A stretch of 64,000 bases of DNA. Source: a virus. The stretch's first letter is position 1; each line of letters starts with the position of its first letter. Under the pieces are notes generated by a model that was not told the origin of the DNA, did no database searches, and saw only the letters and a program-made list of their open reading frames with translations. Of this stretch, positions 13,526 through 23,969 are shown one piece after another. Both the position numbers and the translations under genes were made by a program. Location of the stretch: the IMG/VR virus record IMGVR_UViG_3300020165_001964, one strand, 5' to 3'.

Positions 13526-13754
13526 TTTATTAACAATATTATATTCACAAGATTCCTTAGATGTTGAACTGAACTTAGATAGTTTGTGGGAAAACTATGA
13601 GTGGGAAGAAATCCAAGAAGTTACAGATGTATATGCTGAAGTAGAACAAATCACAGCAGTTGCAGGAGTTCGTGGTTCTGAGGCAAAGTATGAGATATTC
13701 AAGTATCTATACTACAGAAAATCAATGAAATCAAAAAAAATGAAAAAAAATTAA
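13506..13754 (+). CDS. Small, probably exported hypothetical protein
   Basis: Likely TTG start with signal-like LRLIYLSLLTILYSQ. Confidence 0.5.
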   Translation: MRLIYLSLLTILYSQDSLDVELNLDSLWENYEWEEIQEVTDVYAEVEQITAVAGVRGSEAKYEIFKYLYYRKSMKSKKMKKN

Positions 13755-13825
13755 AATAAAATGTATTTTGAGAATTTATATATATATATATTATTATATC
13801 AAATGATGATATAGAGTTTTTTGAA

Positions 13826-14238
13826 AATTGAGAAATCGGAAAGTACAGAGAGTAATTAGCTCTGTATGGGATTGGCTGAAAAATGAGTATACTTCGGAAG
13901 CTCATAAGGCAATCTATGATTAGTTCGTGGTGAACCTACTTAGGTGTAAATCATTTCGGTAGTTGAGACATCAATAATCAGAAGTACTTGAAGAAAAAAA
14001 CAGAAACGATTCTGTTGACCTTATTGTGGGTAAGGGTAATACTGAAATCCCACTTTATGACTGAACAAACTAAACTCTGAGAGTTAAGGTATTGGCATAG
14101 AGGTTGTACTCGATTCGATGAGATTAACCATCTTGAGAATCACTTTCATAACTGAAAGATGTTAAGTATAAGGTAGAAAAAATCAGAGCTTCAAGTTGTG
14201 AGTAATCGTTAATCTCACATCCCCAAGATTTCCAAATT
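13826..14238 (+). ncRNA. Candidate large structured ncRNA (~410 nt), family unidentified
   Basis: No + strand ORF in the track. Terminal pairing GAAATC/GATTTC, many internal stems, and a 10-bp long-range helix 14119-14128/14208-14217. Strand inferred from context. Confidence 0.65.
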
Positions 14239-14248
14239 TAGATAATAT

Positions 14249-14319
14249 AAAAAATGGCCACATGATTTTTAGTTTCCACTTATAAATAAACTTAAAAAAC
14301 TAGCTGGCCATTTTTTTTT
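14249..14319 (+). terminator. Long hairpin with U-tract
   Basis: AAAAAATGGCCA...TGGCCATTTTTTTTT with further internal pairing. Confidence 0.65.
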
Positions 14320-14434
14320 ACAAATAATGAAAAAAGATTACATTTTTAGCAATCAAGGTTATACTTATTATTGTATCGATAAATGATACCACTAATAAAT
14401 ACAAAATAAACATAAACAAATAGGAGATTAAGTA

Positions 14435-15190
14435 ATGGACTTAAACGCAATTAAAAAACGACTCAATCAGTTACAAACCACAAACAATCGTACTTCCAGT
14501 CTTTGGAAACCACAACCAGGTAAAACTCAAATAAGAATCGTTCCTTATGCATTCAATAAAGATAATCCTTTCATTGAATTATTTTTCCACTACAATCTGA
14601 ACAATCGTTCATATCTTTCACCAATTTCTTTCGGTAGACCAGACCCAATTGAGGAGTTTGCTCAGAAACTAAAAGGAAGTGGTAGTAAAGAAGATTATCA
14701 GCTATCAAGGAAACTTGAAGCAAAGATGAGAACTTTTGCACCAGTAGTAGTTAGAGGAGAAGAGAAACAAGGAGTGAAATTTTGGGGATTTGGAAAGACA
14801 GTTTATCAAGAACTTCTTTCTATAATCGCAGACCCTGATTATGGTGATATCACCGACCCAGTAAATGGTCGTGATGTTGTTGTGGAATTTATCACAGCTG
14901 AAGAAAGTGGTGCGAGTTTTCCAAAAACTAACATTCGTGTCAAACCTAATCAAACATCGATTTCTGATGAACCAGATGTACTTGAATTGGTTAAAACCCA
15001 ACAAGACATCAAGGAAATCTATCAAGAGTTAGCATATGATGACCTTACAGACGTGCTGAATGAATGGTTGAATCCAAATGAGGATTCTACTGAAACAGAA
15101 ACTAAAGAAAAAGAAGTTTCTACTTCAGAACTTTCATCTGCCAAAGTAAGTAATACAGGTGATGCTTTTGACGAATTGTTCAAATCGTAA
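14435..15190 (+). CDS. ssDNA-binding protein (gp32-like)
   Basis: WKPQPGKTQIRIVP, FGKTVY, DITDPVNGRD, acidic tail ending DAFDELF; precedes the recombinase. Confidence 0.8.
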   Translation: MDLNAIKKRLNQLQTTNNRTSSLWKPQPGKTQIRIVPYAFNKDNPFIELFFHYNLNNRSYLSPISFGRPDPIEEFAQKLKGSGSKEDYQLSRKLEAKMRTFAPVVVRGEEKQGVKFWGFGKTVYQELLSIIADPDYGDITDPVNGRDVVVEFITAEESGASFPKTNIRVKPNQTSISDEPDVLELVKTQQDIKEIYQELAYDDLTDVLNEWLNPNEDSTETETKEKEVSTSELSSAKVSNTGDAFDELFKS

Positions 15191-21206: not shown

Positions 21207-23969
21207 ATGATTATGAATAATTATCGTAATCTTATCGCATCAGTATTTATGATGGCAGGATTGTATGCACAATCTATTGTCGGAGTTGTTACTGATGTTG
21301 ACTCACAACCACTTGAGGGAGCTAATATTGTAGTTGTAGGAACAGATGTAGGTGGAGTATCAGATAATTCTGGTGCTTTCAAAATTGATGTTCTATCAGG
21401 TACATACGATGTAACTGCTTCTTTCATAGGTTACTCTTCAATAACGAAATCAGTAGTTGTTGAGGATATAGTTTCAAGTGTTAATTTCATATTAGAAATT
21501 GATTTCTTGGGATTATCAGATGTAGAGGTGTTAGCATCTCGTGCATCTGAAACAACACCTGTTGCTTACACTAATGTTAGTAAAGCTGAAATGGATGTTC
21601 GTCTTGGTTCACAAGACATTCCAATGATTCTTAACACAACACCAAGTGTATATGCAACCCAACAAGGTGGTGGTGCGGGTGATGCTCGTATCAACATTCG
21701 AGGTTTTAATCAACGAAATGTTGCAGTAATGATAAATGGTGTACCACAGAATGACATGGAGAATGGTTGGGTGTACTGGTCTAATTGGGACGGAGTTGGT
21801 GATGCTACATCATCTATTCAGGTTCAAAGAGGACTAAGTGCAGTTAATCTTGCGACTCCATCCATTGGTGGAACAATGAACATTATTACAGACCCAACCG
21901 CGATGGAAAAAGGTGGAAAGTTCAAACAAGAAGCTGGAGATGGGGGTTTTCTAAAGACTACCGCTACCTACCATACTGGTCTCATCGGAGATAAGTTAGC
22001 TTTAAGTGGAACAATTGTTCGTAAAACTGGTGATGGAATTATCGATGGGACATGGACAGATGCATGGGCCTATTATTTCGGTGGTTCTTACGCCGTAAGT
22101 GAAGACCAAAGAGTTGAGTTGTACGCAATAGGTGCACCACAACGACACGGTCAGAACTTATACAAACAAAACATAGCAACATACTCACAAGAGCTTGCAG
22201 GTGATGTTGATGGATATGATACTGATGCATTTGCAGATGGTAACAAATTCGAAACTGAAGCAGGTAGGTTCTACAATCAAAATTGGGCACCAGTAGATGA
22301 ATCATACACTGGTCAACAATATTGGTATATGTATGGAGCAAAAACAACCGATAGATTCAATAAAGGTTTTATAAATGAGAGAGAAAACTTCTTTCATAAA
22401 CCATTAGTGAATCTAAATCACTTCTTAACAATAAATGACAAGACTCGTTTGAGTTCAGTTCTTTATTGGAGTGGTGGTTCTGGTGGTGGTACTGGTACAT
22501 ATGGTAGTGTTTCAAGAACACCTGCAGTTGAGGGAGAAAGATGGTATGCATCTTCGCCTTGGATGTGGGATTGGAACGCAGAGATAGAACAAAACAGAAC
22601 AAACTTCGATGCTGATTATTCTGAAACAGATGCTCGTTCAACAGGTATTCTTCGTAACTCAATTAATCGTCAAGATACATATGGTTTGATTTCAAAATTA
22701 AACTACATTGTTAATGATGAACTTGAATTACAAGTTGGATTAGACTGGAGAACAGCAGGTATCGAACACGCTCGTGAGGTTCGTGATTTATTAGGTGGAG
22801 ACTACTATGTAGATTTCGCTGATGATAATGCACCTGATGGGAAAGTTGTTGGTTTAGGTGATATCATTGCCTATCATAATGAAACCACAGTCGATTGGAT
22901 TGGTGGATTTTTACAAGGTAATTATAATACTGAAAAATTAAACCTATATGGTATGGGTGGATTATCAAGTATTACATACTCTTATGAAGACCACTTTGCT
23001 GTTAATGTAGATGAAGATGGGAACACCATTGATAATCTTGTTAAAGCAGATGCAATCACGACCTATCAGTTAAAAGGTGGTGGATTATATAACATTAACG
23101 ATAATCTTGGAGTATTCCTAAACGCAGGTTTAGTTGAAAAAGCACCAATATTAGACAATGTTATCTACTACGATGGTACAGTCTCAACAGACCCAGCAAA
23201 TGAAAAATTCATTGCTAGTGAGTTTGGAGTGAACTATGGAACTGAAAGGTTCGGAGTTAAAGTTAGTGCTTATAACACCGATTGGAAAGATAGAAACCTT
23301 ACTAAATCTGTTTCAACAGGTCAAGGTTCATCAGGTGATACTGATATTATCTTCTTAACAGGTGTTGACCAAAACCATAAAGGTATTGAGATTGAAACTA
23401 AAGTAAAACCACACGATATGGTTGAACTTGATTTCATCGCATCTTATGGTAGTTGGAAGTTCGTTGGTGATGCCGATGGTACTTACCAAGAACAAGAGTT
23501 TAATGATGATAACCAAGTAATTGGTGTTCAGACTACAGATTACTCTTATGCACTTGATGGATTATGGGTTGGTGATATGCCACAAACATCTTATATTTTA
23601 GGTGTTACTCTTAAACCAATTAAAGGTTTGAGATTACAGGCATTGTACAAAACATATGACAGAAACTTTGCTGATTGGTCACCTGATTCTCGTGAGATTG
23701 AGGGTGATGCCGACAGAACACAAGTTTGGGAAGCCCCAGGTTATTCTAAACTTGATTTACATGCATCATACAATCTTCCAAGTGTTGCTGGTTTAGATTT
23801 GACTCTTACAGGTCATATCTTCAACGCACTTGATGATGTATTTGTACAAGATGCAGTTGACAATAGTCAATACAATGGGTATGGTGATAAACTTCACTTA
23901 CCACATAACGCAGAGGTATTCTTAGGAACACCACGATATGCAAACATTGGATTGACTGTTAATTTCTAA
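21207..23969 (+). CDS. TonB-dependent outer-membrane receptor with N-terminal carboxypeptidase-regulatory-like domain
   Basis: Signal peptide, GVVTD..PLEGANI, plug motifs (INIRGF, INGVP), beta-barrel pattern and C-terminal Phe. Confidence 0.92.
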   Translation: MIMNNYRNLIASVFMMAGLYAQSIVGVVTDVDSQPLEGANIVVVGTDVGGVSDNSGAFKIDVLSGTYDVTASFIGYSSITKSVVVEDIVSSVNFILEIDFLGLSDVEVLASRASETTPVAYTNVSKAEMDVRLGSQDIPMILNTTPSVYATQQGGGAGDARINIRGFNQRNVAVMINGVPQNDMENGWVYWSNWDGVGDATSSIQVQRGLSAVNLATPSIGGTMNIITDPTAMEKGGKFKQEAGDGGFLKTTATYHTGLIGDKLALSGTIVRKTGDGIIDGTWTDAWAYYFGGSYAVSEDQRVELYAIGAPQRHGQNLYKQNIATYSQELAGDVDGYDTDAFADGNKFETEAGRFYNQNWAPVDESYTGQQYWYMYGAKTTDRFNKGFINERENFFHKPLVNLNHFLTINDKTRLSSVLYWSGGSGGGTGTYGSVSRTPAVEGERWYASSPWMWDWNAEIEQNRTNFDADYSETDARSTGILRNSINRQDTYGLISKLNYIVNDELELQVGLDWRTAGIEHAREVRDLLGGDYYVDFADDNAPDGKVVGLGDIIAYHNETTVDWIGGFLQGNYNTEKLNLYGMGGLSSITYSYEDHFAVNVDEDGNTIDNLVKADAITTYQLKGGGLYNINDNLGVFLNAGLVEKAPILDNVIYYDGTVSTDPANEKFIASEFGVNYGTERFGVKVSAYNTDWKDRNLTKSVSTGQGSSGDTDIIFLTGVDQNHKGIEIETKVKPHDMVELDFIASYGSWKFVGDADGTYQEQEFNDDNQVIGVQTTDYSYALDGLWVGDMPQTSYILGVTLKPIKGLRLQALYKTYDRNFADWSPDSREIEGDADRTQVWEAPGYSKLDLHASYNLPSVAGLDLTLTGHIFNALDDVFVQDAVDNSQYNGYGDKLHLPHNAEVFLGTPRYANIGLTVNF

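What the first reader, a model, noticed from the sequence alone, without database searches (positions are those of the whole stretch)
13826..14238. ~410-nt highly structured orphan ncRNA candidate
Seen, in a 680-nt gap of an otherwise dense genome: closing stem GAAATC 13832/GATTTC 14227; TACAGAG 13844/CTCTGTA 13860; GATTG 13870/CAATC 13910 enclosing ATGAG..CTTCGG..CTCAT; ATGATT 13916/AATCAT 13949; AACAGAA-ACGA-TTCTGTT at 13999-14016; a CCTTAT/GTAAGG hairpin whose GTGGG can pair with CCCAC 14049 (possible pseudoknot); CTCTGA 14075/TCAGAG 14183; and perfect TGAGATTAAC 14119/GTTAATCTCA 14208. It has an AT-rich promoter-like run upstream and a terminator downstream. Inference: a stand-alone large phage RNA, comparable in kind to GOLLD/ROOL, or a new class.
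Basis: partly seen in the sequence, partly recalled or inferred. Interest (0 to 1): 0.75.

Follow-up and report, generated by a model that had tools for sequence, protein, structure and literature searches.

The report
Two-core manA-type phage RNA gene
The flagged stretch is a real gene for an elaborately folded RNA of about 400 bases in an uncultured marine phage; it is an enlarged, two-module relative of the known "manA" RNA (reported in a 2026 preprint to build RNA-only cages), not a wholly new class, and it is made behind the anti-termination signal found in front of ribosomal RNA genes of the probable host group.

Summary
Window 13831-14233 (+) is a conserved, non-coding, heavily base-paired RNA. 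In 35 homologues under 90% identical, 93% of cells pair (77% shuffled, 35-43% slid) and 77 of 109 pairs show double compensatory changes. Four are rejected. I add a second covarying loop-loop helix, ACGA 14006/TCGT 14206.

It is not an orphan. Rfam manA (RF01745) matches 14025-14223 at 58.8 bits (cut-off 55.2), and 12 of 20 relatives pass. The 5' half is a second manA-like core, so this is an uncatalogued two-core variant.

It looks like a gene of its own: promoter-like block, leader hairpin, and a boxA matching the 16S leader and spacer boxA of Marinimicrobia (the likely host). An intrinsic terminator follows, then a separate promoter-like motif before the SSB gene. RNA-library contigs from three further studies cover it.

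Function is unknown. My best guess is a stable, probably self-associating RNA.

This scan has already found enlarged two-core manA-like phage RNAs on other DNA.

The parts
13766..13800 (+). Promoter-like block: TTTTGAGA, then a TATATATAT run ending in TATTATTATATC, preceded by an A-rich tract
   Evidence: Conserved in homologues although the gene further upstream varies. The exact motif TATTATTRTATC occurs only here and at 14366 before the SSB gene. The scan also finds TTGAGA-18-TATTAT. The transcription start was not mapped.
13795..13813 (+). Short leader hairpin (TATATC/GATATA) between the promoter-like block and boxA, in the position of boxB in rrn leaders
   Evidence: The arms differ but stay complementary in homologues, for example GTATC/GATAC and GTATCT/AGATAC; some homologues carry a larger hairpin here (read by eye).
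13816..13829 (+). boxA-like element GTTTTTTGAAAATT (family consensus GTTTTTTGA[A/C]AATT)
   Evidence: Nearly invariant in 35 homologues. The same motif lies 62-79 nt before the 16S rRNA gene and again in the 16S-23S spacer of two Marinimicrobia genomes.
13831..14233 (+). Body of the structured RNA, closed by helix P0 (13832-37 with 14227-32)
   Evidence: Covariation statistics. P0 changes sequence but stays complementary (GAAATC/GATTTC, TGGAATT/AATTCCA, TGAAAAT/ATTTTCA): the longest helix averages 6.99 bp against 6.06 +/- 0.12 for swapped partners. No conserved ORF. Many invariant G-U pairs fix the + strand.
13843..13867 (+). Hairpin P1, whose loop carries a self-complementary hexamer (TAATTA)
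   Evidence: Helix 1: 6 of 8 pairs with double changes. Loop variants TAATTA, TTATAA and GATC stay self-complementary; 11 of 87 sequences lose this. Chance of a 6-nt palindrome in a shuffled loop is about 0.18.
13868..13872 (+). 5' strand of long-range helix P2 (GGGAT), pairing with ATCCC 14219-14223; the counterpart of the manA outer stem
   Evidence: 87 of 87 sequences paired at all five pairs; 13870-14221 is G-C in 72 and A-T in 15; helix 2.
13873..13981 (+). Module A, the first manA-like core: TGGCTGAA..hairpin..ATAAGGCAAT, then a stem (13917-21/13976-80) closing three hairpins, the first with the loop GTGGTG
   Evidence: Helices 3-7 covary. The module B model hits 13871-13947 at 12.8 bits, E 0.008, the second-best match in 701 nt. 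The consensus of the first 60 nt aligns to module B at z = 5.9 against shuffles.
13986..13993 (+). 5' strand of long-range helix P6 (ACTTGAAG), pairing with CTTCAAGT 14189-14196
   Evidence: 76-85 of 87 sequences paired, with up to 5 pair types per position; helix 8.
13999..14016 (+). Hairpin P7. Its loop ACGA (14006-09) forms a 4-bp loop-loop helix with TCGT 14206-09 in the loop of the 3' hairpin
   Evidence: 14006-14209: A-T 43, G-C 40, T-A 2, C-G 2. 14007-14208: C-G 65, T-A 21. 14008-14207: G-C 78, A-T 7. Formal count together with the other pseudoknot: 98.9% paired against 86.8% shuffled and 14-37% slid.
14018..14023 (+). 5' strand of helix P8 (ACCTTA), pairing with TAAGGT 14169-14174 and enclosing module B
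   Evidence: Five of six pairs covary; 86-87 of 87 sequences paired at those five; helix 10.
14025..14223 (+). Match to Rfam manA (RF01745)
   Evidence: 58.8 bits against a gathering score of 55.2, E 2e-12, over the full model length. 12 of 20 diverse homologues pass at 59-73 bits.
14056..14167 (+). Module B, the second manA-like core: TGACTGAA..hairpin..TTAAGGTAT, then a 7-bp stem (14092-98/14159-65) closing three hairpins with loops GTTGTA, TTAACCA and TAAC
   Evidence: Helices 12, 13, 15-17 and 19 covary. Extra pair 14098-14159: C-G 49, T-A 32. Model R1 was built on this module.
14075..14080 (+). Pseudoknot strand CTCTGA in a hairpin loop of module B, pairing with TCAGAG 14183-14188
   Evidence: 87 of 87 sequences paired at all six positions. 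14077-14186: C-G 48, T-A 36. 14078-14185: A-T 48, G-C 28, T-A 11.
14198..14218 (+). 3' hairpin (GTGAG/CTCAC) with the loop TAATCGTTAAT, matching the last hairpin of manA
   Evidence: Helix 20: 100% paired, 3 pairs with double changes; Rfam alignment.
14249..14319 (+). Intrinsic-terminator-like long hairpin: A run, TGGCCA...TGGCCA, then nine T
   Evidence: The outer stem covaries across homologues (TGGCCA, GGTTC/GAACC, GCCCC/GGGGC, GGTGGTGAG/CTCATCACC) and is always followed by 6-9 T. The simple scan missed it because its loop limit is 8 nt.
14366..14377 (+). Second copy of the promoter-like motif (TATTATTGTATC) with its own short hairpin, in front of the SSB gene (14435-15190)
   Evidence: SSB identified. 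SSB starts within 450 nt of the RNA in 72 of 83 unique loci.

Best explanation
This is an independent gene for a stable, abundant RNA of about 400 nt in a roughly 180-kb uncultured marine phage, probably a phage of Marinimicrobia (SAR406).

Shown or read from sequence:
- Transcription appears to start at a conserved promoter-like block and passes a short hairpin and a boxA element like the one in Marinimicrobia 16S leaders.
- The RNA then folds into a closed architecture: an outer stem, two manA-type cores, several long-range helices and two pseudoknot or loop-loop helices.
- Transcription appears to stop at an intrinsic terminator before the separately promoted SSB gene.

Inferred:
- BoxA recruits the host Nus-factor antitermination complex, so that this long untranslated transcript is completed and folded as rRNA is.
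- The product acts as an RNA in its own right. By homology with single-core manA RNAs, which form 8-, 10- and 60-mer RNA-only cages in vitro through intermolecular kissing loops, it probably associates with copies of itself.
- Candidate contact elements are the self-complementary P1 loop, the ACGA/TCGT loop pair, and the GTGGTG and AACCA loops.

What the particle does for the phage is unknown.
For: Structure: 93.1% of cells paired, 77 of 109 pairs with double changes, 0 of 500 shuffles as good. Two tertiary helices at 98.9% paired. Outer stem covaries. No conserved ORF.

Family: manA above the gathering score here and in 12 of 20 relatives. A second core is found by my model of the first (E 0.008) and by consensus alignment (z = 5.9).

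Own transcription unit:
- A conserved promoter-like block and hairpin upstream, although the upstream gene varies: a homologue of it is present in only 11 of 77 loci.
- BoxA identical in kind and position to the leader and spacer boxA of two Marinimicrobia rrn operons.
- A covarying terminator plus T run directly after the RNA in nearly all homologues.
- The linker between the RNA and the terminator is the least conserved stretch: identity 0.26, 33% gaps.
- A second copy of the promoter motif lies before SSB.
- In a minority of loci the next gene is not SSB but Hsp20, a Mom-like protein or unknowns.

RNA libraries: contigs from three further studies lie on the RNA. X5 has one 405-nt contig at 13817-14219. 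X11 has a 374-nt contig at 13873-14224 from a run of only 4.6 million letters. X6 has two contigs spanning 13850-14256.

Self-association: manA RNAs form closed homo-oligomers in vitro (preprint 10.64898/2026.07.01.735769). The P1 loop stays self-complementary through three different sequences.
Against: - No raw reads were available, so the 5' and 3' ends, the strand and the level of the transcript are not measured. RNA libraries can also contain DNA.
- The RNA-then-SSB order is kept in 72 of 83 loci, which would also fit a functional link to SSB.
- Cage formation is shown only in vitro, only for single-core manA RNAs under 200 nt, and only in a preprint. Nothing here tests oligomerisation of the two-core form.
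- Covariation cannot tell intramolecular from intermolecular loop contacts.
- The P1-loop palindrome is weak evidence: chance is about 0.18 per A/U-rich loop, and 11 of 87 sequences lack it.
- BoxA function is inferred from sequence and position only.
- Eight of 20 relatives fall below the manA cut-off.
Confidence: 0.6

Rival explanations
1. Cis-acting leader or riboswitch. The RNA is the 5' leader of the SSB-UvsX-exonuclease module, and a ligand or protein binding to it decides whether transcription passes the 14249-14319 terminator. This is the original 2010 reading of manA as a riboswitch candidate.
For: SSB begins within 450 nt downstream in 72 of 83 unique loci, on the same strand. manA was proposed as cis-regulatory because it lies before genes, including nucleotide-metabolism and ibpA genes (PMC2864571). 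One relative here has Hsp20 downstream. A boxA-modified polymerase could read into SSB.
Against: The stretch between the RNA and the terminator is the least conserved part and offers no conserved alternative pairing with either terminator arm. A separate promoter-like motif and hairpin lie between the terminator and SSB. Some loci have other genes downstream. An aptamer of 400 nt with two repeated cores is unlike any validated riboswitch (my own knowledge). The single-core family forms cages without ligand.
Confidence: 0.12
2. Monomeric trans-acting decoy or scaffold. The RNA acts alone, for example by binding and sequestering a host or phage protein in the manner of 6S RNA or of RNA inhibitors of defence or nucleases, and does not multimerise in vivo.
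For: It is a stand-alone, apparently abundant phage RNA. The invariant loops (GTGGTG, TTAACCA, GTAAGGGTAA) could be protein-binding sites. Both covarying tertiary helices can be drawn within one molecule.
Against: No partner protein is indicated: the upstream neighbours vary, and the downstream SSB is a DNA-binding protein with its own promoter motif. The nearest relatives multimerise in vitro.
Confidence: 0.2
3. Chance or compositional artefact, or a small-protein coding region in an A/T-rich spacer.
For: The folding-energy z-score is only -2.23, and the minus strand gives -1.86. Short ORFs exist in the window copy.
Against: Massive compensatory covariation. The ORFs are kept open in only 4-25 of 87 homologues, and the longest frames are no longer than in shuffled sequence. 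There is an Rfam family match.
Confidence: 0.01

Closest known systems
manA RNA motif (Rfam RF01745; Weinberg et al. 2010, PMC2864571; cryo-EM assemblies in the preprint Ren et al. 2026, 10.64898/2026.07.01.735769)
   Same: The 3' half scores above the family's gathering cut-off. It shares the core hairpin flanked by TGACTGAAYAA and TAAGGT, the junction closing three hairpins, the first hairpin's G-T-rich loop (the manA consensus GUGGUG itself stands in module A), the final hairpin with a GGTA...TAATCC loop, and a C-rich 3' strand that closes the fold. Like manA it comes from marine phages, and one relative lies before an Hsp20/ibpA-type gene.
   Different: It is about twice the size, roughly 400 nt against 192 model positions. 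It carries a second manA-like core (module A) inserted between the 5' strand of the outer stem and the first core. The long hairpin of the manA model (about positions 118-150) is absent; its place is taken by three strands that pair with upstream segments (P6, P8 and the CTCTGA/TCAGAG pseudoknot). There is an extra outer stem P0, an extra hairpin P1 and a covarying ACGA/TCGT loop-loop helix. It has its own boxA leader and terminator rather than a 5'-UTR position. Eight of 20 relatives fall below the Rfam cut-off.
rRNA-operon leader with boxA (Nus-factor antitermination; established knowledge for E. coli rrn operons)
   Same: The order is promoter, hairpin, boxA, then a long structured untranslated RNA. 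The boxA sequence GTTTTTTGAAAATT matches the 16S-leader elements of two Marinimicrobia genomes (GTTCTTTGAAAATTTGG and GTTTTTTGATAATTTGG) and their spacer copies.
   Different: The product is a 0.4-kb phage RNA, not rRNA. No boxC or long RNase III processing stem was identified (P0 is only 6-9 bp). Binding of NusB/NusE was not tested.
GOLLD and ROOL (large ornate RNAs often encoded by phages; RNA-only multimers by cryo-EM, bioRxiv 10.1101/2024.12.08.627333)
   Same: It is a large, ornate RNA of unknown function encoded by a phage. If the manA analogy holds, it would also be an RNA-only multimer.
   Different: No Rfam match to either family, even at E up to 10. It is smaller. Its conserved core belongs to a different family.

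Membership tests
manA RNA (RF01745) | Covariance-model score at or above Rfam's gathering score (55.2 bits) | tested here: met
   58.8 bits, E 2e-12, model positions 1-192. 12 of 20 diverse homologues reach 59-73 bits; 8 fall below.
manA RNA (RF01745) | Core hairpin flanked by the conserved UGACUGAAUAA and UAAGGU strands | tested here: met
   Aligned with high posterior probability. The helices 14060-62/14088-90 and 14068-71/14082-85 covary. The same motif is present a second time at 13873-13912.
manA RNA (RF01745) | Multi-stem junction closing three hairpins, with G-U-rich and UAAC-type loops | tested here: met
   Helices 15-17 and 19 covary. Loops are GTTGTA, TTAACCA and TAAC in module B; GTGGTG in module A.
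manA RNA (RF01745) | Outer stem (consensus GGGAG/CUCCC) closing the core | tested here: met
   The Rfam alignment deletes it. However, ATCCC 14219-23 at the equivalent 3' place pairs with GGGAT 13868-72 in 87 of 87 sequences with covariation. The 5' strand is displaced upstream by the inserted module A and other helices.
manA RNA (RF01745) | Long local hairpin between the junction and the last hairpin (about model positions 118-150) | tested here: not met
   It aligns with non-pairs and deletions. This segment (14169-14196) instead pairs with upstream strands at 14018-23, 14075-80 and 13986-93.
manA RNA (RF01745) | Position as a 5'-UTR cis-regulatory element (the Rfam type) | tested here: inconclusive
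   It lies upstream of SSB in most loci, but is separated from it by a conserved terminator and a second promoter-like motif.
manA RNA (RF01745) | Assembly into closed homo-oligomers (preprint, in vitro) | not testable with these tools
   Only indirect hints: self-complementary P1 loop variants and covarying loop-loop pairs that could act in cis or in trans.
rrn-type boxA antitermination leader | BoxA sequence like that of the host group's rRNA operon, placed between the promoter and the structured RNA | tested here: met
   Window 13816-29 is nearly invariant in homologues. Two Marinimicrobia genomes carry it 62-79 nt before the 16S gene and again in the 16S-23S spacer.
rrn-type boxA antitermination leader | NusB/NusE binding and read-through of Rho-dependent terminators | not testable with these tools
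   Needs biochemistry.
GOLLD / ROOL | Match to the family's covariance model | tested here: not met
   No match at gathering scores on the whole window, nor at E up to 10 on 13600-14500.
Riboswitch (aptamer plus expression platform) | Conserved alternative pairing between the aptamer's 3' part and a terminator or RBS | tested here: not met
   The linker 14235-14248 is the least conserved and most gapped stretch. No complementarity was seen between P0/P2 3' strands and the terminator arms across homologues (by inspection).

The most novel reading that the evidence does not exclude
The two-core RNA is a natural covalent tandem of the cage-forming manA protomer. In infected SAR406 cells it is mass-produced through the hijacked rRNA antitermination system and assembles into RNA-only particles, via the palindromic P1 loop and the kissing loops. 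These particles would serve the phage as a compartment or scaffold, for example around its replication and recombination proteins. That would be the first in-vivo role for an RNA-only cage.
Probability: 0.12. Interest if true: 0.85.

Novelty: new variant of a known kind. Interest (0 to 1): 0.55.

Why it matters
manA has been an orphan for 16 years. It was first filed as a riboswitch candidate, and a 2026 preprint now reports that it builds RNA-only cages in vitro, but no biological role is known.

This locus adds four things:
- A well-determined secondary structure for an uncatalogued, double-sized form: more than 20 helices and two tertiary helices, all covarying.
- Evidence that the RNA is a gene of its own, with an rRNA-style boxA leader, which argues for a stable RNA product and against a switch.
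- Presence in RNA libraries of several independent marine studies.
- A probable host group (Marinimicrobia/SAR406) that has no cultured members as far as I know.

A natural tandem of the cage protomer is a direct test case for how RNA quaternary assemblies are built and whether they exist in cells.

Tried and rejected
- blastn of the region against 50,697 GenBank phage records: no match.
- The window's own assembly is not held. The nearest record, G001, is a 58-kb fragment with the same single manA hit.
- The simple terminator scan found nothing because its loop limit is 8 nt.
- RNAalifold's GATT 14008/AATC 14181 is rejected: it clashes with the covarying pseudoknot and with hairpin P7.
- A module A counterpart of the pseudoknot (ACTTC 13891/GAAGT 13981) is perfect in some lineages but mismatched in most (28-68 of 87 paired): unresolved.
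- Pairing of the leader T run with the A run at 14177-82 shows no compensating changes, by eye.
- GTGGTG (module A) with AACCAT (module B) as a bridging loop pair: both loops are nearly invariant, so it cannot be tested.
- A loose all-against-all covariation screen was swamped by G-U 'pairs' from shared ancestry. The strict Watson-Crick version gave the ACGA/TCGT helix.
- Full-text search for boxA consensus strings returned only unrelated primer hits.
- The boxA pattern is not enriched in the window as a whole: 4 matches against 5.5 expected.
- Read laying: in X5, X6 and X11 the flanking genes have no cover while the RNA does. Because these are contigs, and absence of cover proves nothing, I do not count this as evidence. 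Contig ends (13817, 13850 and 13873 at the 5' side; 14219, 14224 and 14256 at the 3' side) are at most a weak hint. No joints or circular junctions were seen.
- No second manA-like core elsewhere in the window.

Full report
**What is there.**
Window 13755-14434 is a 680-nt gap between a small ORF of a pilin-like cassette (ending at 13754) and a gp32-like single-strand DNA-binding protein gene (14435-15190). A UvsX-like recombinase and an exonuclease follow. Rfam finds exactly one family in the whole window: manA (RF01745) at 14025-14223 on the + strand, 58.8 bits against a gathering score of 55.2. The alignment keeps the conserved core but deletes the model's outer stem and most of one long hairpin. 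No GOLLD, ROOL or other family appears, even at E up to 10. There are no tRNA genes in the window.

**Homologues.**
The SSB protein has at least 593 relatives in IMG/VR. The whole spacer is conserved upstream of many of them at 66-89% identity. A scan with one conserved 22-nt pattern added more loci. A profile search then gave 87 distinct full-length copies, 52-95% identical to the window copy. No GenBank phage record holds it.

**Structure.**
I aligned 35 copies that are under 90% identical to each other (A2). On this alignment my model of 109 pairs has 93.1% of cells paired, against 77.1% in shuffles and 35-43% when partners are slid. 77 pairs show changes on both sides, and the covariation score is 0.499 against 0.193; no shuffle of 500 reaches any of these measures.

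The fold is nested:
- Outer stem P0 (13832-37/14227-32).
- Hairpin P1 (13843-67).
- Long-range P2, GGGAT 13868-72 with ATCCC 14219-23.
- Module A (13873-13981).
- Long-range P6, 13986-93 with 14189-96.
- Hairpin P7 (13999-14016).
- P8, 14018-23 with 14169-74.
- Hairpin 14026-53.
- Module B (14056-14167).
- A 3' hairpin (14198-14218).

P0 is misaligned by MAFFT. Taken sequence by sequence, it changes (GAAATC/GATTTC, TGGAATT/AATTCCA, TGAAAAT/ATTTTCA and others) yet stays complementary: the longest helix averages 6.99 bp against 6.06 +/- 0.12 when the 3' tails are swapped among sequences.

Two tertiary helices covary:
It is paired in 87 of 87 sequences at all six positions, with C-G/T-A and A-T/G-C/T-A exchanges.
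- A new 4-bp loop-loop helix joins ACGA 14006-09 to TCGT 14206-09. Pair 14006-14209 is A-T 43, G-C 40, T-A 2, C-G 2.
- Together they are 98.9% paired, against 86.8% shuffled and 14-37% slid.

Invariant G-U pairs, the Rfam hit, boxA and the T run all fix the + strand. Folding energy alone is a weak signal, z = -2.23. There is no conserved reading frame.

Five are confirmed and four are rejected; details are in the observation check. The striking 10-bp complement TGAGATTAAC/GTTAATCTCA is a peculiarity of this copy. In homologues it is only 66% paired, and each arm sits in a covarying local hairpin.

**Two cores.**
Module B is the part Rfam recognises. Module A has the same build:
- TGRCYGAATAAT, then a hairpin, then ATAAGGYAAT.
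- A stem closing three hairpins, the first being a 3-bp stem with the loop GTGGTG. That is the exact loop of the manA consensus.

A covariance model built only from module B finds module A as the second-best match in the region: 12.8 bits, E about 0.008 with rough calibration. The consensus sequences of the first 60 nt of the two modules align at z = 5.9 against shuffles, and none of 1000 shuffles scores as high.

Relative to the Rfam model, the second core is inserted inside the outer stem. The model's long hairpin is replaced by strands that pair with upstream segments. Twelve of 20 diverse relatives pass the manA cut-off and eight do not. This is therefore a divergent, enlarged subgroup that the current model only half covers.

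**A gene of its own.**
- *Upstream.* Homologues share an A-rich tract, TTTTGRGA, a TATATATAT run ending in TATTAWTGTATC, and a short hairpin whose arms differ between copies but stay complementary. The nearly invariant GTTTTTTGA(A/C)AATT follows. The gene further upstream is not conserved: a homologue is present in only 11 of 77 loci.
- *Likely host.* The window's TonB-dependent receptor (21207-23969) has 51-69% identical homologues almost only in Marinimicrobia/Neomarinimicrobiota genomes, which points to the host group.
- *BoxA.* In two such genomes the 16S leader carries GTTCTTTGAAAATTTGG or GTTTTTTGATAATTTGG 62-79 nt before the 16S gene. A further copy lies in the 16S-23S spacer. These are the classical boxA positions. 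The phage element is thus a boxA of the probable host's type. That it recruits Nus factors is an inference from established rrn biology.
- *Downstream.* Nearly every copy is followed at once by an A run, a G+C-rich stem that covaries between lineages, and 6-9 T. The linker between the RNA and this terminator is the least conserved stretch of the spacer. I see no conserved alternative pairing of the kind a riboswitch platform needs.
- *SSB promoter.* The exact promoter-like dodecamer occurs in the window only twice, before the RNA and before SSB.
- *Gene order.* SSB follows within 450 nt in 72 of 83 loci. Elsewhere the next gene is Hsp20, a Mom-like protein or unknowns. One distant relative has a tRNA gene 80 nt upstream.

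**Expression.**
All runs offered are assembled contigs, so ends, strand and level cannot be measured. What can be said:
- In X5, one 405-nt contig spans 13817-14219 without a single difference.
- In X11, a 454 run of only 4.6 million letters, a 374-nt contig spans 13873-14224.
- In X6, two contigs span 13850-14256.
- In X1, contigs cover the whole stretch.

I take this as presence in RNA libraries of several independent marine studies. As an inference only, it is also a sign of high abundance.

**How it probably works.**
Shown: a conserved, closed, two-core fold with its own leader and terminator.

Inferred: boxA-assisted synthesis of a stable RNA that acts as RNA. A 2026 preprint reports that single-core manA RNAs under 200 nt assemble in vitro into octamers, decamers and a 60-mer icosahedral cage. 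The assemblies are built from pentamers held by intermolecular kissing loops (10.64898/2026.07.01.735769). By homology I think self-association is the most likely activity here.

Candidate contacts:
- The P1 loop stays self-complementary through different sequences (TAATTA, TTATAA, GATC). Chance alone gives a 6-nt palindrome in about 18% of such loops.
- The ACGA/TCGT helix could act in cis or in trans.
- The invariant GTGGTG and AACCA loops are complementary to each other, both here and in the manA consensus.

None of this is tested. The biological role is open.

**Rivals.**
A leader or riboswitch for SSB would explain the synteny, but the terminator, the second promoter motif and the unconserved linker speak against it. 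A monomeric decoy cannot be excluded. Chance or coding is excluded.

**Novelty.**
The family is known. The two-core architecture, the extra helices and the boxA-equipped gene layout are not in Rfam or in the papers I could find. Earlier agents of this scan reported similar enlarged two-core manA-like RNAs, some with boxA leaders, in other phage genomes. Those notes led me to the preprint and to both readings, which I then tested here. They are not independent evidence.

Noticed in passing
window 21207-23969; loci L197-L275: The phage's TonB-dependent receptor has 51-69% identical homologues almost exclusively in Marinimicrobia/Neomarinimicrobiota (SAR406) MAGs and SAGs, some on contigs over 200 kb. 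Together with the matching rrn boxA, this suggests the roughly 180-kb phage infects SAR406.
   Followed up: partly
L196 (NZWA01000089.1, 44-kb contig binned as Flavobacteriales): The best receptor hit (82% identity) is on a 44-kb contig of a 'Flavobacteriales' MAG. It may be a contig of a related phage binned into a bacterial genome by mistake.
   Followed up: no
window 14262-14300: The inner part of the terminator hairpin (GATTTTTAGTTTCCAC...AAACTTAAAAA) is more conserved than the outer stem: identity reaches 0.96 at 14265-74. That is odd for a mere terminator loop, and I have no explanation.
   Followed up: no
window 14366-14395: The SSB gene has the same promoter-like dodecamer as the RNA gene, followed by its own short hairpin (GTATC..GATAC) and an A/U-rich leader. 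This could be a phage promoter class with a 5' stabilising hairpin.
   Followed up: partly
L096:2567-3040: In one relative the gene after the RNA is an Hsp20/alpha-crystallin (IbpA-type) chaperone. This echoes the 2010 report that manA RNAs lie before ibpA genes.
   Followed up: partly
L076:1165-1236: In the most divergent relative a tRNA gene lies about 80 nt upstream of the RNA. Other manA-like RNAs noted by this scan also sit in tRNA arrays.
   Followed up: no
L166, L136, L144, L085 (between the promoter block and boxA): Some relatives carry a 60-110-nt insertion forming a larger hairpin in place of the short leader hairpin.
   Followed up: no
window 13891-13895 with 13981-13985: The loop of the module A hairpin is perfectly complementary to the strand after module A in this copy (ACTTC/GAAGT) and in another lineage (ACATT/AATGT), but mismatched in most. 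It may be a lineage-specific counterpart of the module B pseudoknot.
   Followed up: partly
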